DNA of 10,104 bases from positions 1-10,104 of the IMG/VR virus record IMGVR_UViG_2728369184_000010; one strand, given 5' to 3'. Below are positions 1-9,197 of the stretch, one piece after another. The stretch comes from a virus. Its lineage: Duplodnaviria; Heunggongvirae; Uroviricota; Caudoviricetes. Under the pieces are notes generated by a model. It did no database searches, was not told the DNA's origin, and saw only the letters and a program-made list of their open reading frames with translations. The stretch's first letter is position 1. Each line of letters opens with the position of its first letter. A program made the position numbers and the translations under genes.

Positions 1-279
1 ATGGCTGCGCTTGGGCAGTCAATCGGTGGTATATTTCCTTCTGATGAAATAGTCAAAGGCTCTATTAGCGGATATGTCTTCGAGCAATTTGAAATCGCCT
101 GTTACACCTCACTCTTAGCAGCAGCAAAAAATGCCGGTGATACAGCTTCAATTCCAACCATCGAAGCGATTTTAAATGAGGAAAAGCAAATGGCCGACTG
201 GCTGATTCAGCATATTCCGCAAACAACTGAGAAATTTTTAATTCGCTCTGAAACTGATGGCGTAGAAGCGAAGAAATAA
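1..279 (+). CDS. yciE: 3' part of a host gene for a YciE-like (DUF892, ferritin-like) protein; the 5' end lies outside the window
   Basis: Frame is open from base 1 to TAA at 277-279. The translation (...MAALGQSIGGIFPSDEIVKGSISGYVFEQFEIACYTSLLAAAKNAGD...) matches my recollection of the YciE C-terminus. It lies convergent to an ompW 3' remnant, as ompW and yciE do in E. coli K-12. The initial Met is probably internal. Confidence 0.55.
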   Translation: MAALGQSIGGIFPSDEIVKGSISGYVFEQFEIACYTSLLAAAKNAGDTASIPTIEAILNEEKQMADWLIQHIPQTTEKFLIRSETDGVEAKK

Positions 280-302
280 TACCCTTTATACCATGTCCTT
301 AT

Positions 303-330
303 TGACCCCGTATATTACGGGGTCGTTTTT
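303..330. terminator. Terminator hairpin between the convergent yciE and ompW 3' ends, probably bidirectional
   Basis: Perfect 9-bp stem GACCCCGTA / TACGGGGTC with a 3-nt loop, followed by GTTTTT on the + strand and preceded by an A-run on the other side. It sits 24 nt after the yciE stop. Confidence 0.6.
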
Positions 331-338
331 GTGCGGAA

Positions 339-455
339 TTAAAAACGATATCCTGCTGAGAACATAAACACCCACGGATCGAGGCGTACGCTATCGTGTT
401 GCTGTGCACCGCCCAGTTTATAATTGGCGGTGGTATCGATATCCATGTACCACAC
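339..455 (-). pseudogene. ompW: Promoterless 3' fragment of ompW (last ~38 codons), displaced by prophage integration
   Basis: Hand translation of the - strand gives VWYMDIDTTANYKLGGAQQHDSVRLDPWVFMFSAGYRF followed by TAA (stop at + 339-341), which matches the OmpW C-terminus as I recall it. There is an in-frame stop just upstream at 465-467 and no start codon, and similarity to OmpW is lost upstream of about 455-465. It is absent from the supplied ORF track because it has no start. Confidence 0.75.
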
Positions 456-465
456 TGGTAGGTTT

Positions 466-626
466 CAAAAAACACAATAACCAATTGTATTTGAAGCAAA
501 AAACAAGACTTTGAGATGCTTTTTTGTACCTTTTTTTTATGTTTTTAACTGTCTGATTTTATTGAAATCTTTTTTAGTTTTGCAGAAGGGATTTTTTACT
601 TGATTGTAACTTTTTCGTTTTTTTGG
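466..626. other. AT-rich, T-tract-rich non-coding segment at the host/prophage boundary; candidate phage arm of the attachment site
   Basis: Many T5-T8 runs between 520 and 624 and no plausible ORF. It sits immediately next to the point where ompW similarity ends. Lambda-type att arms are AT-rich and carry IHF and Int arm sites, but I could not pick out individual sites by eye. Confidence 0.35.
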
Positions 627-663
627 GGCTAATTGACGCGCAATGCTGGGCGGGGAGCGCACA
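627..663. repeat. Copy A of a 37-bp direct repeat (GGCTAATTGACGCGCAATGCTGGGCGGGGAGCGCACA); the second copy is at 2456-2492
   Basis: Hand alignment: 18 identical bases, a 5-nt block with 2 mismatches, then 14 identical bases. Weaker similarity continues about 28 bp further (about 17 of 28). Both copies follow a T-rich run. Confidence 0.8.
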
Positions 664-767
664 GCCAAAAAAACCGAAATTGACCGCTAATTACTGCCAA
701 TCATCATCGCTCTGATTGAGCGTAAATCATTCAGGTTATTCAGTTCTTCCTTCTGCTCTCGCTGACG

Positions 768-938
768 TCAATAAATCCCATCATTGCGATCAACCTCATC
801 CTTAACCATTGATGCGAGCAGTTCTTCCAGTTTCTGCGCTGACAGCTTTACCTGGTGATCTTCAGCATCTTCCCGGGCTATTGTGGTTCGCGCAGTGGCT
901 GATTTTGCTGACATCACCACAGGGGGCAGACGGACCAT
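768..938 (-). CDS. Small hypothetical protein (56 aa from the internal ATG at 936-938), immediately downstream of the tfa-like gene
   Basis: The ORF-track entry 768-1049 starts at a TTG that lies inside the duplicated tfa-downstream hairpin region. The internal ATG at 936-938 is preceded by GGAGG about 10 nt upstream. The predicted protein is charged and helical (MVRLPPVVMSAKSATARTTIAREDAEDHQVKLSAQKLEELLASMVKDEVDRNDGIY) and I do not recognise it. Confidence 0.3.
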   Translation of the reverse strand: MVRLPPVVMSAKSATARTTIAREDAEDHQVKLSAQKLEELLASMVKDEVDRNDGIY

Positions 939-1000
939 TGAACCAGGGCCTCCGGAACAAATAAGGGCAAAAATAACAACCACTATCGAAAGCTCACAAA

Positions 1001-1172
1001 CTAACCGCAGCACGTTCCTGCATACGACGTGTCTGCGGCATAATCCCAATGATTACTCCCTGACAGGATTTGCAGGCCACTCAATATCAGGTGCAGTTGA
1101 TGTATCAACACGATTCAACAATACCCGATATTTATTCCATGCCTCCAGCAACGATCTTTCTTCCTCCGTTGC
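1001..1172. repeat. Copy 1 of a ~172-bp direct repeat covering the 3' end of tfa plus its downstream hairpin; copy 2 is at 2051-2221
   Basis: Hand alignment of 1001-1172 against 2051-2221 gives roughly 90% identity with one 1-nt indel. The plus-strand shadow ORFs 883-1233 and 2079-2456 share the same peptide ([27 protein letters not shown]). Confidence 0.8.
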
Positions 1173-1322
1173 GATTTCCAGATCTACAGCATCCTGCAGT
1201 GGCGCAATATACTCACTGAATTCCTGGATGTAGAACTGTGTGGTGACGGTCTTCCAGCCATTCGGCTCCTGCTGTATCGAAGCATACCAGGCTATTTCAA
1301 TATCGCTATGCTGCGGCAGCAT
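1053..1322 (-). CDS. tfa: Short tail-fibre-assembly-like protein (89 aa): lambda Tfa C-terminal domain preceded by an unrelated short N-terminus
   Basis: The C-terminal ~50 aa ([51 protein letters not shown]) are near-identical to the lambda Tfa C-terminus as I recall it. The N-terminal ~35 aa have no lambda counterpart. The ATG is at 1320-1322 and the TAA at 1053-1055. Lambda Tfa is about 194 aa, so this is a truncated or chimeric version. Confidence 0.7.
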
Positions 1323-1378: not shown

Positions 1379-2047
1379 ATGGTGAAATTAATGAAAAAAA
1401 ACACAGATGATGGGGCTAAAATTTACACACCACTTACCCTAAAGCTTTATGACTGGTGGGTTTTGGGAGTATCAAATCGGCTTGCATGGGGATGTCCTAC
1501 AAAGGAACACCTTCTTCCACACTTTCTGGAACATTTAGGTAACAACCATCTGGATATTGGTGTTGGAACTGGGTTTTACCTTACTCACGTACCTGAGAGT
1601 AGTCTGATATCTTTAATGGATTTGAACGAAGCTAGCCTGAACGCGGCATCTACAAGGGCTGGGGAATCAAAAATTAAACATAAAATTAGCCATGATGTTT
1701 TTGAACCTTATCCCGCGACGTTACATGGTCAATTTGATTCCATTTCCATGTTTTACCTTCTTCACTGCCTGCCTGGAAATATATCTACAAAAAGCTGTGT
1801 AATACGCAATGCGGCGCAGGCCTTAACTGACGATGGAACTCTATACGGAGCCACAATTCTTGGCGATGGAGTTGTGCACAATAGCTTCGGTCAAAAACTG
1901 ATGCGCATTTACAATCAGAAAGGCATCTTTTCAAACACAAAAGATTCCGAAGAAGGCTTAACACATATACTCTCAGAGCATTTCGAGAATGTTAAAACCA
2001 AGGTTCAAGGTACTGTAGTAATGTTTTCCGCTTCAGGGAAAAAATAG
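1379..2047 (+). CDS. Class I (Rossmann-fold) SAM-dependent methyltransferase, substrate unknown; accessory (moron) gene on the strand opposite to the phage late genes
   Basis: 222-aa ORF with a glycine-rich SAM motif I (HLDIGVGTGFYL), an acidic post-I motif (SLMDLNEAS) and a hydrophobic motif III-like stretch (FDSISMFYLLHCLP). No DPPY/NPPY or PCQ motif typical of DNA methyltransferases. Composition is AT-richer than flanking phage genes (by eye ~40% GC versus over 50%). An alternative start at ATG 1391 (MKKNTDD) has a slightly better upstream GGTG. Confidence 0.75.
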   Translation: MVKLMKKNTDDGAKIYTPLTLKLYDWWVLGVSNRLAWGCPTKEHLLPHFLEHLGNNHLDIGVGTGFYLTHVPESSLISLMDLNEASLNAASTRAGESKIKHKISHDVFEPYPATLHGQFDSISMFYLLHCLPGNISTKSCVIRNAAQALTDDGTLYGATILGDGVVHNSFGQKLMRIYNQKGIFSNTKDSEEGLTHILSEHFENVKTKVQGTVVMFSASGKK

Positions 2048-2050
2048 CAT

Positions 2051-2221
2051 CCAACCGCAGCACGTTCTTGCTTAAGACGTGCTGCGGCATAATCCCAATG
2101 ATTACTCCCTGACAGGGTTCACAGGCCACTCAATATCAGGTGCAGTTGATGTATCAACACGGTTCAGCAACACCCGATACTTTTTCCAGGCTTCCAGCAA
2201 CGAGGTTTCTTCCTCCGTTGC
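2051..2221. repeat. Copy 2 of the ~172-bp tfa 3'-end direct repeat
   Basis: See copy 1 at 1001-1172. This copy begins 4 nt after the methyltransferase stop codon. Confidence 0.8.
2055..2087. terminator. Conserved hairpin downstream of the tfa 3' segments, abutting the methyltransferase stop; possible terminator
   Basis: Perfect 11-bp stem CCGCAGCACGT / ACGTGCTGCGG with an 11-nt loop. The paralogous copy at about 1005-1040 is imperfect (1-nt insertion). There is no U-run directly after the stem on either strand; on the - strand TTTTTT follows after 10 nt. Terminator function is therefore uncertain. Confidence 0.35.
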
Positions 2222-2240: not shown

Positions 2241-2381
2241 TCACCCACGATTAACCAACAGCCAGACCAGCAGACACGCCACCACCGGCACAGCAAAATC
2301 CATCAGGCTTGCCACATCCCACGCGCGCGGATCAAAACCGCCCCACCACGGCATATTCATTCGCTTGCCATGTCCGAACAT
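2241..2381 (-). CDS. Possible small membrane protein (46 aa), below the ORF-track length cut-off
   Basis: ATG at 2379-2381 and TGA at 2241-2243. The translation MFGHGKRMNMPWWGGFDPRAWDVASLMDFAVPVVACLLVWLLVNRG has a C-terminal hydrophobic stretch compatible with one transmembrane helix. The RBS is weak and the region is GC-rich with open frames on several phases, so this may be spurious. Confidence 0.2.
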   Translation of the reverse strand: MFGHGKRMNMPWWGGFDPRAWDVASLMDFAVPVVACLLVWLLVNRG

Positions 2382-2557: not shown

Positions 2558-4387
2558 TCAATAGCGGATTGTCCCTACATCCATTTCTGGCGAATCCACT
2601 AACCAGAAATTATCTGGCTTTACAGCCAGAATGATCCAGGCAGTGTTTGTTGTTGATGGCCAGGAAGGCAGCACATCGTATGCCAGGTTATCGCAAGAAT
2701 CACGATAACCGTACTCATTAAAAAGTGGAGCCATTGCTGCCACAAGATTCACCGCATTCAGCTCATTACCCAGCTTGCGCTCAAAAAGTGCCACACCTGC
2801 CGTTCCTTCCACCCACACGCCACGGCTGTGACCACTATAACCATAATCAGGGTGGTACGGTGTGTAACCCGTGGTTTCCCTCGTACCAAATAAAAAACGC
2901 CCCATATATTTTCGGCACTTAGCCGCTTTCTCAGCATCAATATTGGCAACAAACAATCCGCCCCAGGAAGACTGATCCAGCGCCGCTGCGTTGTCATAGT
3001 GGGTTGAATGAACCCCCTGTCGAAATCGGCCTTCATCTTCCACCCACAGACCTCTGATGATACTCTTTGCCAGCCTGTCAGCCCGCTCACTGAAACCGTC
3101 AAATCCCAGCCGTCCCATCAGTTCAAACAAAAACCAGATATCAACGTTATGCTCCAGTGCGCACCATTCGGCGACGAAAGTTTCATCAAAATTGCCGTCC
3201 ACATAACGCCCCTGCCCCCCTTTATACAGGCCTTCACGCAGGTCGCCTGGTGTGCTCACCAGAAAAGTATCCAGCCAGGCAATGCCTGCCAATAGCTTTT
3301 CTCTGACCCGCGCAGTCTGAGTACCGTCCGGATACTTCTCCAGATAGAAAGCAAGAGCATAATAAACCCATGCCGCATTGCCCAAGCGGTAATAGGTACG
3401 CGGTGACATGGCAGACAGCCTGTTAACAAAAAACTTTACTCCACCGTTTTCATCAACAAGCGCACACAAGCCCGCAACGTATCTTTCTACAGCCTCATGT
3501 CGCTGAACCATCAACGCCAGTGCTGCCAGCGCCTGGTCATACGTGTAACACCGATCTTTCATCACCCTGATCACTTCGGGGTCTGCGTCCTCCGGCATCC
3601 AGTAGCTACGAATGAGCAGTGGAAACTCCAGCGTTGTGATCCACGCATTATCCTCAATCCGAATAAGACGAAACTGTTTTGCTCCCGTCCAGCAACGTCT
3701 GAAATAGAAAGTTCCGTCACTATTCAAATTAGCGTCGCCGTTAAAATACTCTCCGGTTGTATAAGCATACATTTCGACTTTATACTTTTCTGGTTCAGAA
3801 ATATCGCAATATCCGTTAACTGCACCGACATAATTAAAATCGATATTTTCTTTTATTTTTAAAGATATTGATGTATCAACAACCTCGGGTTGTTCCAGTT
3901 TTAACATTGCAGTAGTGCAACGACTCACGATGTCGTCAAAGTTCTCAAAGCGCAAACCGGGAAAACTATCGGCTATTCCCTGCATTTCAGACAGTAACGC
4001 TTCTGCCCTTTTTGTCGCTGATATTGCCACATCTGCACTTCGTCGCGCCTGACTTGTCAAATCTTCAAATCGTTTCACCACATCTGGCTTCAGGTCGCCT
4101 TCGTCGGGGGCAGTCAGAAAATCATTCAGCGTACCTGGTCTGGAACCTTCATAAACGGTAATGGTCCCGGCATGTGAAGGCGGAAAACCTTCAACCAGCA
4201 GGGTGACGCTGTACTGACCATACTCAACATCCATGCTGTAACGTCCAGCTTCATCCGGATTTTCTGAGGCCACCGTGTTCACCACAACCGTTGTGCTGTT
4301 ACGTTTTGCCTTCAGTTGAATAGTGCAGTTCTGTATTGGTTTTCCCGCACCATCTTTCAGCACACCTGAGATTTTTACTGCTGCCAT
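2558..4387 (-). CDS. stf: Side-tail-fibre-like protein: lambda Stf N-terminal tail-attachment domain fused to a divergent ~520-aa C-terminal globular domain (putative receptor-binding or polysaccharide-degrading module)
   Basis: The N-terminal ~90 aa (MAAVKISGVLKDGAGKPIQNCTIQLKAKRNSTTVVVNT...GTITVYEGSRPGTLNDFL) closely match the lambda Stf N-terminus as I recall it. The rest lacks the Ala/Ser/Thr-rich fibre repeats of lambda Stf and is instead rich in aromatic, helix-like segments (TYDQALAALALMV, NAAWVYYALAFYLEKY, WCALEHNVDIWFLFELMGRLG, DNAAALDQSSWGGLF). The position after lom matches lambda stf. The ORF-track start is a GTG at 4393; the ATG at 4385-4387 is preceded by GGGGTGGA and aligns with the lambda start. 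Confidence 0.8.
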   Translation of the reverse strand: MAAVKISGVLKDGAGKPIQNCTIQLKAKRNSTTVVVNTVASENPDEAGRYSMDVEYGQYSVTLLVEGFPPSHAGTITVYEGSRPGTLNDFLTAPDEGDLKPDVVKRFEDLTSQARRSADVAISATKRAEALLSEMQGIADSFPGLRFENFDDIVSRCTTAMLKLEQPEVVDTSISLKIKENIDFNYVGAVNGYCDISEPEKYKVEMYAYTTGEYFNGDANLNSDGTFYFRRCWTGAKQFRLIRIEDNAWITTLEFPLLIRSYWMPEDADPEVIRVMKDRCYTYDQALAALALMVQRHEAVERYVAGLCALVDENGGVKFFVNRLSAMSPRTYYRLGNAAWVYYALAFYLEKYPDGTQTARVREKLLAGIAWLDTFLVSTPGDLREGLYKGGQGRYVDGNFDETFVAEWCALEHNVDIWFLFELMGRLGFDGFSERADRLAKSIIRGLWVEDEGRFRQGVHSTHYDNAAALDQSSWGGLFVANIDAEKAAKCRKYMGRFLFGTRETTGYTPYHPDYGYSGHSRGVWVEGTAGVALFERKLGNELNAVNLVAAMAPLFNEYGYRDSCDNLAYDVLPSWPSTTNTAWIILAVKPDNFWLVDSPEMDVGTIRY

Positions 4388-4441: not shown

Positions 4442-5041
4442 TCAGAATTTATAACCGACACCCACGATAAAACCGTCAGTGCGCCAGTCACCACTGCCGG
4501 AGCCTTCATAAGCAATATCAATGGCCACGGATTCGGTCGGGTTAAACTGCACGCCAGCCCCCCACGCCAGAGACGTGTTACTGTGGCGACCATCATCACT
4601 TGCGGTCAGCACATCGTGCGTTTTCCCCTTGTTGTCAGTTACGCGGAGATAATCCCCGGAGAAAGTCGAAACACGGCTGTAAGCCACACCCGCCATCGCA
4701 TATGCGCTGAACCACTCATTCACGCGCACAGATGGCCCCGCCATCATGCTGAACCAGCGGTTACGCACTGAATCTTCATGCCAGCGGGTATCACTGTAAC
4801 GGGTAATCTGGCGATTCTTGTCTCCAGCATAACTGAATGACGTCACCAGCCCCAGCGTGTCCGTAAATTCATAACGGTATTTCACGTTAATGCCCTTCAG
4901 GTCATCGTTGCCGGGCATATCAGTATGGGACTGAATATACCCGGAGCTTAGTGTGGACTGATGCTCTGCTGCACTCGCTGGCGTACCAGCGGCAACCAGC
5001 CAGACTACTGCGGACAGAATAACAGCACATAATTTACGCAT
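4442..5041 (-). CDS. lom: Lom/Ail/PagC-family outer-membrane beta-barrel protein
   Basis: 199-aa ORF with a signal peptide ([24 protein letters not shown]). The C-terminus [23 protein letters not shown] is identical to lambda Lom as I recall it. It sits immediately downstream of J as in lambda. The - strand has GAGAGG upstream of the ATG. Confidence 0.9.
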
Positions 5042-5108: not shown

Positions 5109-8100
5109 TCAGCTAATCGTGATGCCTGCAGTGGCTTTCTTCATCACCACAACCAGCAAATCGCTGATACTTGCTGTGGGATACCAACCATTTACCCACC
5201 ATGCTGATACAGAAAACTCCAGTGTCATTACGCCACTGCCTGCAGGCATATCAATAACACCCGTGTATATCAGCGTATTATCCAGAGCCGTTCGGTTATA
5301 AATTTCAGCCCCGTTTTTCTTCACTATCAGGCGGCATGACGAATAAGTATCGCTATTCTCCCGCTCATGTCTGGCACCGCTGAAAGCCACCGCAGGAATA
5401 ACAATTTGCCGGTCAAACGGCTGATCGTCATAAACCCTGACGGTAATGGTCCCTGATGGCCACCGCTCCGGTGCACGGGAGTCCCGGGGGAAAGCTTTGC
5501 CCACTGTTTTAACGAGATCGCCTTCAATCTGGTTCGCGGACAGTTTTCCCAGAACCCGACAGTTCTCGTTAATCGTGACGTTGTTGAGCGTCCCTGAATT
5601 TGCATTCACATTACCGCTGATATCCGCATTTTTAGCGGTCAGCTTTCCGTCCGGTGTCAGGGAAAATGCCGGCGGATTTCCACCGCTGGTAATGGTGGGA
5701 GCCGTCAGGCGTTTCAGGAACACGTCGTTCATGAATATCTGGTTGCCCTGCGCCACAAACATCGGCGTTTCATTCCCGTTTGCCGGGTCAATAAACGCGA
5801 TACGATTGGCGGCAACCAGAAACTGGCTCAGCTTGCCTTCCTCCGTGTCCTCCATGCTGAGGCCAATACCCGCGACATAATGTTTGCCGTCTTTGGTCTG
5901 CTCAATTTTGACGCCCCACATAGCATTCCATTTATCGTTAGCGTCCTTCCACTCTTTCGAAAACTCATCCAGTCTGCTGGCGTTATCCTCCGTCAGGTCG
6001 ACTTTTTTCAGCAGCTCTTTACCGAGATGGGATTCGGTTATCTTGCCTTTGAAAAAATCCAGGTAACCTTCCGCATCATCGCTCGCCCGACCGACGGCCT
6101 CCACGAATGCCGATTTGCCAACGGTGTTCACACTGCGGATATAAAAGTAATAATCATGGCCCGGTTTGATATTGATACTGGCGGCTATCCAGTACAGCCC
6201 CGTGCCAAGGTAGCGGGCTGTGGTTTCAACCTGCCTGATATCGGTAATCCGCGTTTCCGAGAACCAGAACTCAAACTGTACCGTCGGATCATAAACCGCA
6301 AGATGCGGCGTGGCAGTTATCTGAAAATAGCCCGGCGTCAGCTCAATCCGCGACGGCGCTGCCGGGGCGGCAATCCGGAACGATACCGATGCCGGATCGC
6401 CCTGCTGCCCCCAGGCATTTGCCGCCCGGACTGTCAGCCTGTAGTTTCCCAGCGCCAGTTGCGTGAAGCGGTATGTGGTTTCCGTCGTCCGGGCCGTGCT
6501 GACCAGCCGCTCACTGCCGTCATCCGCTGCCACGGTCAGGCGAAGCATAAAGCTCACACCCTTCACCACCTTCGGCGTATCCCAGCGCGCCAGCACCTGG
6601 TATTCCCCGCTGTCTGCGGTGACTTCGGCAGTCAGATGCTGCACTGCTGGCGGTGTGACCCCGTTCACCGTGCCGCTCTGGTCGCCGTCAAAGTGCGCCC
6701 CGTTATCCACGATGGCCTCTTTTTCCGGTACATGCTGCACGGCGGTGATGGCATACGTGCCGTTGTCGTTCTCACGGATACTCACGCAGCGGAACAGGCG
6801 CTGGCGCAGCGTCGGCAGCTTCAGCCCCCACACGCTGTATTCAGCAACGCCGTCAGGAACACGGCTCACTTTTACCTTCACGCCGTCGGTGACGGACTGG
6901 ATCTCCACGCTGACCGGATTGCCACTTCCGTCAACCAGGCTTATCAGCGTGGTACCGGAGGATGGCAGCGTGATTTCACGGTCGAGCGTCAGCGTCCGGG
7001 TCTGGCTGTTCACCGCCAGCACACGACCACCGGTGCTGATACCGGCATAGTCATCATCACAGATTTCAATGACATCGCCCGGCACATGGCGAAGCCCTTC
7101 GGCACCCACGCTGAAGTCCACGGTCTGCGTTTCCAGCAGTTCCGTTTTAATCAGCCACAGCCCGGCTCTGTGTGCCTGCCCCCGACTGGTACAGCCAAAA
7201 GCATCCATCTTCGTGACGTTACGACCGTAACGGGCAATGGCCTGCGTGTCCTCCACAAGCTCTGTCGCCGTCTCCCAGCCATTATTCGGGTCAATCCAGT
7301 TCACCTCAACGGCATTATGGCGGTCCTTCAGGGCGCTGAAGCTGTAGCGGAACGGCGCGCCATCATCCGGCATCACCACATTACTGCGGTTATAGGTCCA
7401 CACCTTATCCGACCGTCGGTCCTGCACGAACGTCAGCGTCTGCCCGTTCCATACCGGCATACAGCGCATCGCCGAGCAGAAATCACTGAGCACATCCCAC
7501 GCCTTGCGCTGCGTGGTCATGTACGCATTACAGGTGATGCGCGGCTCCGTGCCACCAAAGCCATCCGGCACCGACTGGTCGCAATTCTGGCCGATGACAT
7601 ACAGCGCCCATTTATCCACATCCGCCGCACCAAGACGTTTCCCCATGCCGTAGCGCGGATGGGTCAGCATATCCCACAGACACCAGGCCATGTTGTTGCT
7701 GTATGCTGGCTTAAACGTTCCGTCCCAGATACCGCTGTATTGCCGCGTCTGCGGGTTATAGTTCGACGGCACCTGCAGAATACGCCCGCGAAGATGATAA
7801 TTACGGCTCACCTGCTGACTGCCGAACTGTTCCGACTCCACCTGCACGCCGACCAGTGCCGTGTTCGGGTAGCACTGTTTCACATCGATGATTTCGGTGT
7901 ATGACGACCAGAGCGTTTTGTTCTGCAGCTGGTCTGTGGTGCTGTCCGGCGTCATCCTGCGCATCCGGATATTAAACGGGCGCGGCGGCAGGTTATCCAC
8001 CACTACCGATGCCAGATACTGCGAGGTGGTTTTGCCCTTAATGGTGATGTCTTTTTCCGTCACCCAGCCACCGTTACGTTGTATCTGAACCAGCAGGCGG

Positions 8101-8504
8101 ACTTCCGATGGATTCCGGTCCCCTTTTGAGGTGGTTTCCACCAGAGCCTGCACACCGAAGGTAAAACGCAGACGGTCGATGTTTGCAGACGTGATGGTCC
8201 GGATGATCGGCGTGTCGTATTTCACTTCCGTACCCAGCACCTTCTCGGAGCCGGAGGATTCAAATCCCTCCGGCGGAGTCTGCTCCTGCTCACCAGCCAG
8301 GAACACCACCGTGACACCGGCGATGTTGGTATTCCCCTCACTGTCCAGCACCGGCGTACTGTTCAGCAGCACGCTTTTTAATCCATCCACCGGACCTTCA
8401 ACCGGCCCTTCACTGATGGCATCAATCACACTCAGCAACTGCGTGGATTTCAGGTTGTCCTTCGCTTCGCGCGGGGTATGCCCCTTACTGCTGCCTTTAC
8501 CCAT
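5109..8504 (-). CDS. J: Tail tip / host-specificity protein J (central tail fibre); lambda-like except for the C-terminal ~140 aa
   Basis: 1131-aa ORF. The N-terminus [34 protein letters not shown]... and most of the length match lambda gpJ as I recall it. The - strand has GGAG upstream of the ATG. Gene order is L-K-I-J-lom. Confidence 0.95.
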
Positions 8505-8564: not shown

Positions 8565-9197
8565 TCAGCGACCAATCACCACAACCTGACCACCATCCCC
8601 TTCGTCTGCCGTGCTGATCTCCTGAGAAACCACGCGAGACCCCACGCGCATTTCCCCGTACAGAACAGGCAGAACATTGCCCTGGGCAACCATGTTATCC
8701 AGTGAGGAGAAATAGGTGTTCTGCTTACCGTTATCCGTTGTCTGTGTACGGGGAGTTCTGGCTTTCGGTGCCAGCATCTGCGCCACANNNNNNNNNNNNN
8801 NNNNNNNNNNNGCTGCCCCCCATGCTGCAAGGGTGGCTCCGGCGGTAAAGAATGATCCGGCAATGGCGGCAGCCCCCAGGACAATCTGGAATACGCCACC
8901 TGACTTGGCCCCGGCGACTCTGGGAACAATATGAATCACAGCGCCATCAGGCAGAGTCTCATGTAACTGCGCCGTTAACCCGGACGTGCTGACGTCCCGC
9001 CCGGCAATCCGTACCTGATACCAGCCGTCGCTCAGTTTCTGACGAAACGCCGGGAGCTGTGTGGCCAGTGCCCGGATGGCTTCAGCCCCCGTTTTCACAC
9101 GAAGGTCGATGCGGCGACCAAATCGTTGTAAATCCCCGTAAAGGCAGATGCGCGCCATGCCCGGTGACGCCAGAGGGAGTGTGTGCGTCGCTGCCAT
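8565..9197 (-). CDS. I: Tail assembly protein I; coding sequence interrupted by a 24-N gap
   Basis: MAATHTLPLASPGMARICLYGDLQRFGRRIDLRVKTGAEAIRALATQ... matches lambda gpI. It overlaps the 3' end of K by 103 nt in another frame, as in lambda, and the 60-nt I-J spacer is lambda-like. The N-run falls in the Gly/Ala-rich region. Confidence 0.9.
   Translation of the reverse strand: MAATHTLPLASPGMARICLYGDLQRFGRRIDLRVKTGAEAIRALATQLPAFRQKLSDGWYQVRIAGRDVSTSGLTAQLHETLPDGAVIHIVPRVAGAKSGGVFQIVLGAAAIAGSFFTAGATLAAWGAXXXXXXXXXVAQMLAPKARTPRTQTTDNGKQNTYFSSLDNMVAQGNVLPVLYGEMRVGSRVVSQEISTADEGDGGQVVVIGR
8788..8811. other. Run of 24 N (assembly gap or masked bases) inside gene I
   Basis: Seen directly. Lambda gpI has about 22 residues where this window shows about 9 X, so the N-run probably under-represents the true length. 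Confidence 0.95.

What the first reader, a model, noticed from the sequence alone, without database searches (positions are those of the whole stretch)
2558..4387. Side tail fibre with lambda Stf anchor fused to a non-fibrous, possibly enzymatic C-terminal domain
Only the first ~90 aa resemble lambda Stf. The following ~520 aa lack the Ala/Ser/Thr-rich fibre region and instead look like a compact helical domain with aromatic-rich motifs. Such motifs are reminiscent of alpha/alpha-toroid carbohydrate-active enzymes, but this is a guess from sequence texture. A receptor-binding protein with a polysaccharide-modifying domain on a lambda-type tail would set host range by a different route from canonical Stf, and no intact tfa chaperone gene follows it.
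Basis: partly seen in the sequence, partly recalled or inferred. Interest (0 to 1): 0.8.

Follow-up and report, generated by a model that had tools for sequence, protein, structure and literature searches.

The report
Lambda side fibre carrying glycosidase-like barrel
An E. coli lambda-type prophage has replaced the usual long side tail fibre with a short stalk that carries a barrel-shaped domain built like sugar-cutting enzymes, so the phage probably grips or cuts a host surface polysaccharide rather than binding a porin; the enzyme family itself is uncharacterised.

The parts
2558..4387 (-). Whole gene: 609-aa side-tail 'fibre' variant (Stf anchor + stalk + beta-sandwich + (alpha/alpha)6 barrel), stop codon included
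   Evidence: ORF list. 99.2% identical over its full length to the phiSTEC1575-Stx2k 'tail protein'. Whole-gene dN/dS 0.11-0.13.
4103..4387 (-). Residues 1-95: lambda StfN collar (virion attachment) domain
   Evidence: PF08400 E 6.6e-62. PDB 9e7m_Ta E 8.9e-49, 89% identity, TM 0.86. The Ur-lambda structure shows 12 copies of StfN 1-94 forming a collar at the gpV/gpM junction (PMC12617516).
3953..4102 (-). Residues 96-145: rest of the Stf-homologous region and a long amphipathic helix (101-141), probably the trimeric coiled-coil stalk. The module joint lies near residue 135.
   Evidence: Helix 101-141 in the model, with low monomer pLDDT of ~53. Hydrophobic a/d stripe V-F-L-A-S-A-A-A-L-M-I. PF08400 and lambda similarity end at 128-129. 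PHROG 13714 and the other-anchor homologues begin at ~136.
3602..3952 (-). Residues 146-262: neck helix plus beta-sandwich that travels with the barrel
   Evidence: Strands 175-254 with pLDDT 86-97. Conserved in homologues behind all anchors. Nearly identical to the STEC005 allele (dS 0.013) while the adjoining barrel has dS 1.08, which marks a recombination joint at ~262.
2561..3601 (-). Residues 263-609: predicted (alpha/alpha)6 barrel, a glycoside-hydrolase-like putative catalytic or receptor-binding domain. Candidate active-site codons: Y283 3539-3541, D284 3536-3538, R334 3386-3388, E412 3152-3154, H413 3149-3151, D416 3140-3142, D465 2993-2995, D471 2975-2977, W475 2963-2965, W525 2813-2815, E527 2807-2809, W584 2636-2638.
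2241..2381 (-). Small downstream ORF of 46 aa with a hydrophobic C-terminus, conserved downstream of the gene in phiSTEC1575-Stx2k. Role unknown; whether it belongs to the system is uncertain.
   Evidence: Sequence and alignment with the phage. RefSeq calls the region a frameshifted hypothetical protein.
2102..2221 (-). tfa (tail fibre assembly chaperone) 3' remnant, copy 1
   Evidence: RefSeq partial 'tail fiber assembly protein, missing N-terminus'. 140-nt direct repeat with 1033-1172 at 91% identity.
1053..1322 (-). tfa 3' remnant, copy 2 (only the C-terminal ~56 aa match the chaperone family)
   Evidence: PF02413 match to profile positions 75-130 of 131 only. RefSeq partial pseudogene.
4442..5041 (-). 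lom (Ail/Lom outer-membrane protein), immediately upstream as in lambda
   Evidence: PF06316 E 2.2e-120.
5109..8504 (-). J, the central tail-tip attachment protein, which still provides the primary receptor binding
   Evidence: RefSeq gpJ annotation of the 100%-identical record.

Best explanation
The gene encodes the side-tail appendage of a lambda-type siphovirus. The Stf N-terminal collar domain mounts the protein on the tail tip exactly as in Ur-lambda, by homology as four trimers. A short coiled-coil stalk replaces the long fibre. Each chain ends in a beta-sandwich plus an (alpha/alpha)6 barrel from a previously uncharacterised glycoside-hydrolase-like family. The barrel most likely binds a host surface polysaccharide in its central acidic, aromatic pocket and cleaves it. 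Candidate substrates are O-antigen, capsule, LPS core and a common exopolysaccharide. Candidate catalytic residues are D284, E412, D471 and E527. This would give reversible first-contact adsorption and local clearing of the glycan layer, so that J can reach its outer-membrane receptor. Being a self-folding globular enzyme rather than a gp37-like fibre tip, it needs no Tfa chaperone. That explains why only tfa remnants, or none at all, follow it. Shown here: gene integrity, anchor homology, the predicted fold, conservation, purifying selection, and module shuffling between tail types. Inferred: trimer state, copy number, catalysis and substrate.
Against: No enzymatic activity has been measured for any member, and every homologue is 'hypothetical' or 'tail protein'. 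No sequence-level link exists to any CAZy-type Pfam family or solved structure. There are only sub-threshold hints to GH63-like, GH94, GH37 and GH88 in a few distant members. I could not superpose coordinates, so equivalence of the conserved carboxylates with known catalytic acid/base pairs is not shown. A profile comparison with E. coli YgjK gave no signal. The same fold also houses sugar epimerases/isomerases and terpene cyclases. Nearly identical barrels (at least 99.4% at the nucleotide level) occur in lysogens of O18, O27 and O169, plus a truncated remnant in O6, so the target is not obviously the lysogen's O-antigen and remains unknown. The model is a monomer, so the trimer is inferred.
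Confidence: 0.6

Rival explanations
1. The barrel is a non-catalytic, lectin-like receptor-binding domain. It uses the ancestral sugar pocket only to hold a glycan, as an adhesin does, without cutting it.
For: Lambda's own side fibres only bind (PMC12617516). No activity is known for any member. Fold similarity alone cannot separate binding from catalysis.
Against: The full carboxylate/His constellation is retained at 94-99% across phage and non-phage members, including this protein. Carbohydrate-binding derivatives of enzymes usually lose catalytic residues. Very low dN/dS (0.06-0.08) is more enzyme-like than typical of a binding tip under arms-race pressure.
Confidence: 0.2
2. The barrel is an enzyme of another chemistry on the same scaffold, either a polysaccharide lyase or a sugar epimerase/isomerase-type modifier, rather than a hydrolase.
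Confidence: 0.1
3. The gene is a decaying remnant of a defective prophage and has no current function, as RefSeq's pseudogene call would suggest.
For: PGAP annotates only the first 139 codons, as 'incomplete; missing C-terminus'. The surrounding region holds tfa, DUF4376, ompW and yciE fragments. Truncated copies fused to a portal fragment exist in O6:H16 strains.
Against: The 609-codon ORF is uninterrupted. It is 99.2% identical to the gene of an induced phage. The same ORF is annotated full-length in other genomes. It evolves under strong purifying selection. The pseudogene call recurs on another intact allele, STEC005, so it is an annotation artefact.
Confidence: 0.03
4. It is an ordinary fibrous or beta-helical Stf variant that was merely divergent in sequence.
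For: Public names ('tail fiber protein', PHROGs 13714, 4128 and 7032).
Against: The model has no fibre repeat and no beta-helix; the distal 340 aa are all-helical. The best neighbours are (alpha/alpha)6 enzymes.
Confidence: 0.02

Closest known systems
Bacteriophage lambda (Ur-lambda) side tail fibre Stf with its chaperone Tfa
   Same: Same gene position after J and lom. The N-terminal ~129 aa are homologous (72% identity; 89% over the solved 1-94 collar domain). It is therefore presumably mounted at the gpV/gpM junction in the same way.
   Different: No long shaft and no T4 gp37-like OmpC-binding tip. No Tfa gene, only remnants. The distal part is a beta-sandwich plus an (alpha/alpha)6 barrel.
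GH15-type (alpha/alpha)6 glycosidases (dextran dextrinase 9ju0, glucodextranase 1ulv, GH15-related 5z3a) and mycobacterial MmpH (7qsj)
   Different: 9-13% identity. No HMM-level relationship to any Pfam GH family or PDB sequence. Catalytic-residue equivalence not demonstrated. Substrate unknown. Attached to a virion.
Phage tailspike or depolymerase receptor-binding proteins, including the rare 'alpha/alpha toroid' class counted in computational surveys
   Same: Modular design: an exchangeable N-terminal anchor plus a C-terminal carbohydrate-active-like domain, shuffled among tail types. DepoScope reports alpha/alpha toroids as 11 of 984 predicted phage depolymerases (PMC11326577). A Klebsiella prophage survey found 29, less than 1% (PMC12491483).
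   Different: It is not the usual right-handed beta-helix or beta-propeller. I found no experimentally characterised member of this sequence family. It sits on the lambda side-fibre anchor rather than on a podovirus or myovirus baseplate adaptor.
Glycanases encoded in exopolysaccharide-synthase operons (for example BcsZ and Listeria PssZ, both (alpha/alpha)6)
   Different: Different sequence family. Only one operon was examined, and the polymer made by that operon is unknown.

Membership tests
Lambda Stf side tail fibre family | N-terminal collar/attachment domain (PF08400, gpStfN) | tested here: met
   PF08400 E 6.6e-62 over residues 3-128. PDB 9e7m_Ta E 8.9e-49, 89% identity.
Lambda Stf side tail fibre family | Gene located after J and lom in a lambda-type tail module | tested here: met
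   Gene order K(C40)-I-J-lom-this gene.
Lambda Stf side tail fibre family | Long fibrous shaft and gp37-like distal receptor-binding tip | tested here: not met
   Similarity to lambda and other Stf proteins stops at ~129. The model shows a helix, a beta-sandwich and an (alpha/alpha)6 barrel.
Lambda Stf side tail fibre family | Cognate Tfa assembly chaperone gene immediately downstream | tested here: not met
   Only two C-terminal tfa fragments are present here. There is none at all in phiSTEC1575-Stx2k.
(alpha/alpha)6-barrel glycoside hydrolases (GH15/MmpH-like) | (alpha/alpha)6 barrel fold | tested here: met
   [not shown]
(alpha/alpha)6-barrel glycoside hydrolases (GH15/MmpH-like) | Sequence membership in a curated GH family model | tested here: not met
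   No Pfam or NCBIfam hit even at E up to 10 for this protein. Only sub-threshold hits in a few distant relatives. No PDB sequence hit with single sequence or profiles. CAZy/dbCAN itself was not available.
(alpha/alpha)6-barrel glycoside hydrolases (GH15/MmpH-like) | Catalytic acid/base carboxylates in the central pocket | tested here: inconclusive
   D284, E412, D416, D465, D471 and E527 are 94-99% conserved and lie at the N-termini of alternate helices. No coordinate superposition on known catalytic residues was possible. hhalign against YgjK was uninformative.
(alpha/alpha)6-barrel glycoside hydrolases (GH15/MmpH-like) | Measured glycosidic-bond cleavage | not testable with these tools
   Needs biochemistry.
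Phage tailspike/depolymerase receptor-binding proteins | Exchangeable virion anchor plus distal carbohydrate-active-type domain, shuffled among phages | tested here: met
   The same module sits behind five recognised anchors or none. It occurs in myovirus, siphovirus, P22-like and plasmid-borne contexts. Recombination joints lie at ~135 and ~262.
Phage tailspike/depolymerase receptor-binding proteins | Degradation of host capsule, O-antigen or EPS (haloes, product release) | not testable with these tools
   No experimental report found for this family.
AGE-superfamily sugar epimerases/isomerases | Pair of conserved catalytic histidines in the barrel pocket (established knowledge of the family) | tested here: not met
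   [not shown]

The most novel reading that the evidence does not exclude
The barrel defines a new, unclassified glycoside-hydrolase family. Bacteria would use it as a secreted glycanase associated with exopolysaccharide operons. Phages of Gram-negative, Gram-positive and Thermus hosts would use it as a portable receptor-destroying module. On a lambda tail it would turn the four side fibres into twelve-barrel enzymatic 'side spikes'. Near-identical barrels occur in lysogens of several O-serogroups, so the target could be a conserved enterobacterial glycan such as LPS core, ECA or a matrix polysaccharide, rather than a serotype-specific O-antigen. That would be an unusual host-range logic for a depolymerase-type receptor-binding protein.
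Probability: 0.25. Interest if true: 0.65.

Novelty: new variant of a known kind. Interest (0 to 1): 0.48.

Why it matters
Receptor-binding proteins decide which bacteria a phage can reach. This module rides on Shiga-toxin (Stx2k) converting and ETEC/APEC prophages, so it bears on how toxin genes spread. Almost all characterised phage glycanases are beta-helices or beta-propellers. Alpha/alpha-toroid types were seen only as ~1% of predictions in surveys and were dropped from the training of one depolymerase-prediction tool (DepoScope) for lack of examples. A biochemically defined member would add a new enzyme family of 732 clusters at 50% identity, all currently 'hypothetical'. It would also provide a Tfa-independent, self-folding distal module that can be bolted onto the well-understood lambda Stf anchor for phage engineering, and it would correct a recurrent RefSeq pseudogene miscall.

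Tried and rejected
1. Sequence-family assignment of the C-terminal domain failed. Pfam at E up to 10, NCBIfam, phmmer against PDB, and two profiles (A1, A4) against PDB gave nothing beyond noise such as RAD14 and an orange carotenoid-binding protein. Scanning 28 relatives individually gave only sub-threshold GH63-like, GH94, GH37 and GH88 hints.
3. I first read the 'phage tail protein | phage portal protein' hits in O6:H16 strains as another anchor type. Inspection showed deletion remnants of the same cassette, so that reading was rejected.
4. Literature searches for an experimentally characterised alpha/alpha-toroid phage receptor-binding protein, or for a lambdoid Stf with a hydrolase domain, found only computational counts.
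5. Source names of standalone homologues were uninformative; all were 'hypothetical protein'.
6. Inferring the substrate from lysogen serotypes pointed to no single O-antigen, so no substrate is claimed.
7. Plus-strand ORFs overlapping the gene (for example 3497-3862 and 3008-3295) were treated as shadow ORFs, given the strong coding signal on the minus strand.

Full report
WHAT IS THERE. The window is an E. coli chromosome segment, 100% identical to strain MS 21-1. It holds the right end of a lambda-type prophage next to yciE and an ompW fragment. On the minus strand the gene order is K (C40 peptidase), I, J (5109-8504), lom (4442-5041), and then the ORF in question at 2558-4387, which is 609 codons and uninterrupted.

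ANCHOR. Residues 3-128 match Pfam PF08400 'prophage tail fibre N-terminal' at E 6.6e-62. Residues 3-93 are 89% identical to the solved N-terminal domain of Ur-lambda Stf (9e7m). tblastn to lambda and its relatives covers residues 3-129 at ~72% identity and then stops. In Ur-lambda, twelve copies of StfN 1-94 form a collar at the gpV/gpM junction (PMC12617516). By homology this protein is mounted the same way. The Stf-like part is therefore ~130 aa, not ~90.

THE REST OF THE PROTEIN. No Pfam or NCBIfam model matches residues 130-609, even at E up to 10. Three PHROGs named only 'tail fiber protein' do match. An AlphaFold2 model built on 27 homologues has mean pLDDT 81.8 and pTM 0.73. It shows:
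- a long helix at 101-141, with low monomer confidence;
- a small neck and a seven-strand beta-sandwich at 175-254, pLDDT 86-97;
- eleven helices between 282 and 589, plus a short one at 270-276, mostly at pLDDT above 90.
The 101-141 helix has a clean a/d hydrophobic stripe, which fits a trimeric coiled-coil stalk. This is an inference.

Foldseek agrees. It is 14.4% aromatic.

IS THERE AN ENZYME-LIKE SITE? A profile search of 1.84 billion cluster representatives found 732 related clusters, 189 of them at E of 1e-30 or better. I aligned 141 of them to the family HMM. The following residues are 94-100% conserved and all are present in the window protein: Y283, D284, G336, G391, E412, H413, D416, D465, L470, D471, W475, G507, W525, E527, G528 and W584. 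R334 is 89% conserved. The polar and aromatic residues sit at or just before the N-termini of alternate helices H282, H335, H411, H469, H526 and H579. In (alpha/alpha)6 glycosidases the six inner helices are parallel, and the loops entering them build the catalytic funnel (established for GH15; MmpH's conserved acidic central cleft is described in PMC9883506). This is the pattern expected of a conserved glycosidase pocket. I could not superpose coordinates, so equivalence with known acid/base residues is not demonstrated. A sequence-profile attempt against E. coli YgjK failed.

SELECTION AND MOSAICISM. Against two alleles of ~85% nucleotide identity, the barrel has dN/dS 0.06-0.08 at dS ~1. 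This is strong purifying selection and excludes a decaying gene. Against STEC005, residues 136-262 are nearly identical (dS 0.013) while the barrel is saturated (dS 1.08). Against C012, the anchor is the divergent part. The gene is thus assembled from at least three exchangeable segments, with joints near residues 135 and 262.

DISTRIBUTION AND MODULARITY. The barrel DNA occurs in 41 of 5426 complete E. coli genomes. At protein level it occurs in only 16 of 50,697 phage records, so it is uncommon. In the large protein collection the module (from residue ~136) follows several anchors: PF08400, PF12571 (tail-collar fibre), PF18668 (tailspike N), PF03406 and PF25613, or no recognised anchor at all. 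Hosts include E. coli, Salmonella, Citrobacter and Yersinia. The contexts I checked are:
- a second fibre gene after fibre+Tfa in a P2/HP1-like myovirus;
- the last gene of a different siphovirus tail module;
- a P22-like immI/ant context just before the lysis genes;
- after a full lambda-like tail module on the 114-kb plasmid pSTEC388_1;
- a free-standing 494-aa protein among non-structural genes of the 348-kb jumbo phage ph0011;
- the last minor tail protein before lysin A in Microbacterium phages, at ~30% identity.
More distant members are fused to a T4 gp5-type spike and to a podovirus nozzle protein. The 'portal | tail protein' hits in O6:H16 ETEC are deletion remnants, not another anchor.

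NON-PHAGE RELATIVES. Many relatives at 27-33% identity are ~420-aa proteins with signal-peptide or lipoprotein-type N-termini, and all are named 'hypothetical'. One lies directly after a GT2 glycosyltransferase, a two-component pair and a large HEAT-repeat protein. That arrangement resembles exopolysaccharide-synthase operons that carry their own glycanase. This supports a glycan-processing enzyme as the family's ancestral role. It is an inference from one operon.

CHAPERONE. Downstream of the gene there are only a 46-aa hydrophobic ORF (2241-2381) and two 3' fragments of tfa (2102-2221 and 1053-1322). The two tfa fragments form a 140-nt direct repeat flanking a SAM-dependent methyltransferase gene. 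In phiSTEC1575-Stx2k the gene is 99.2% identical and is followed by the small ORF, dinI and int, with no tfa at all. phiStx2k is an induced long-tailed phage (reference 39 cited in PMC12029490). The protein therefore works without Tfa, as expected for a globular domain.

MECHANISM PROPOSED. Four trimers are mounted by the StfN collar. Each presents three barrels on a short coiled-coil stalk. The barrels bind and probably hydrolyse a surface polysaccharide, speeding adsorption and clearing a path for J. I put about 0.6 on the version with catalysis. The fold and the modular receptor-binding-protein role are much more secure. The main rival is a binding-only lectin-like domain (0.2). Other chemistries on the same scaffold come next (0.1). 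A dead pseudogene (0.03) and an ordinary fibre (0.02) are effectively excluded. The substrate is unknown. Barrels at least 99.4% identical at the nucleotide level occur in O18, O27 and O169 lysogens, plus a truncated copy in O6. This argues weakly against a single O-antigen as the target.

COMPARISON WITH THE KNOWN. It is a member of the Stf family only by its anchor and gene position. It fails the fibre and Tfa criteria. It works like a tailspike or depolymerase receptor-binding protein but lacks their usual beta-helix. Alpha/alpha-toroid depolymerase candidates have been counted in surveys at ~1% (PMC11326577; PMC12491483), and I found none characterised experimentally. It has the fold of GH15/MmpH-type enzymes but belongs to no curated sequence family available here.

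VERDICT. I rate it a new variant of a known kind: an enzymatic-type receptor-binding protein with a rare, uncharacterised (alpha/alpha)6 module on the lambda side-fibre anchor. Interest is moderate.

Noticed in passing
window 3971-4387 (also L016 1104-1520): RefSeq/PGAP annotates only the first 139 codons of this intact 609-codon gene, as a pseudogene 'missing C-terminus', in MS 21-1 and again in STEC005. Other genomes carry a full-length call. This is a systematic annotation artefact, probably because only the N-terminal domain has a model.
   Followed up: yes
window 1033-1172 and 2082-2221; methyltransferase gene 1379-2047 (+): A class I SAM-dependent methyltransferase gene on the opposite strand (PHROG 2132, function unknown) is flanked by a 140-nt direct repeat (91% identity) made of two tfa 3' ends. 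The same cassette follows the truncated copy at the potB site in O6:H16 strains (L015), so it travels with the fibre gene.
   Followed up: partly
window 2241-2381 (-): A 46-aa ORF (MFGHGKRMNMPWWGGFDPRAWDVASLMDFAVPVVACLLVWLLVNRG) with a hydrophobic C-terminal segment is conserved just downstream of the gene in phiSTEC1575-Stx2k. It was not seen after family members that carry other anchors. Its role is unknown.
   Followed up: partly
window 8788-8811: A run of 24 N lies inside the tail assembly protein I gene. The window is 39 bases shorter than the matching stretch of NZ_CP146670, so a short stretch appears masked or collapsed.
   Followed up: no
window 1-1000: Prophage-chromosome junction debris: the 3' part of yciE (the full gene is frameshifted in the source record), a 126-nt ompW fragment (~339-464) and a DUF4376 tail-fibre-related fragment (~687-956). 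This indicates integration at or in ompW, followed by decay.
   Followed up: no
window 2561-4387; L016, L017: The gene is mosaic. Against STEC005, residues 136-262 are almost identical (dS 0.013) but the barrel is saturated (dS 1.08). Against C012, the anchor is the most divergent part (dN 0.35). Recombination joints coincide with the predicted domain boundaries at ~135 and ~262.
   Followed up: yes
L017 1-2933 (E. coli C012_chr): At the same yciE/ompW site, an allele of this gene lies directly after P2-type genes ('tail protein X', 'late control protein'). This suggests a hybrid or rearranged prophage remnant.
   Followed up: no
L007 8605-10089 (Escherichia phage ph0011, Asteriusvirus, 348 kb): A free-standing 494-aa copy of the module (59% identity over the barrel) lies among small non-structural genes (methyltransferase, RNA ligase, PNK) rather than in a tail module. 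The domain may also be used as a soluble enzyme.
   Followed up: partly
L009 1-7269 (metagenome contig): A standalone bacterial homologue (P0240) overlaps the stop codon of a 1228-aa HEAT-repeat protein, downstream of a GT2 glycosyltransferase and a histidine kinase/response regulator pair. This looks like an exopolysaccharide operon.
   Followed up: partly
[not shown]
   Followed up: no
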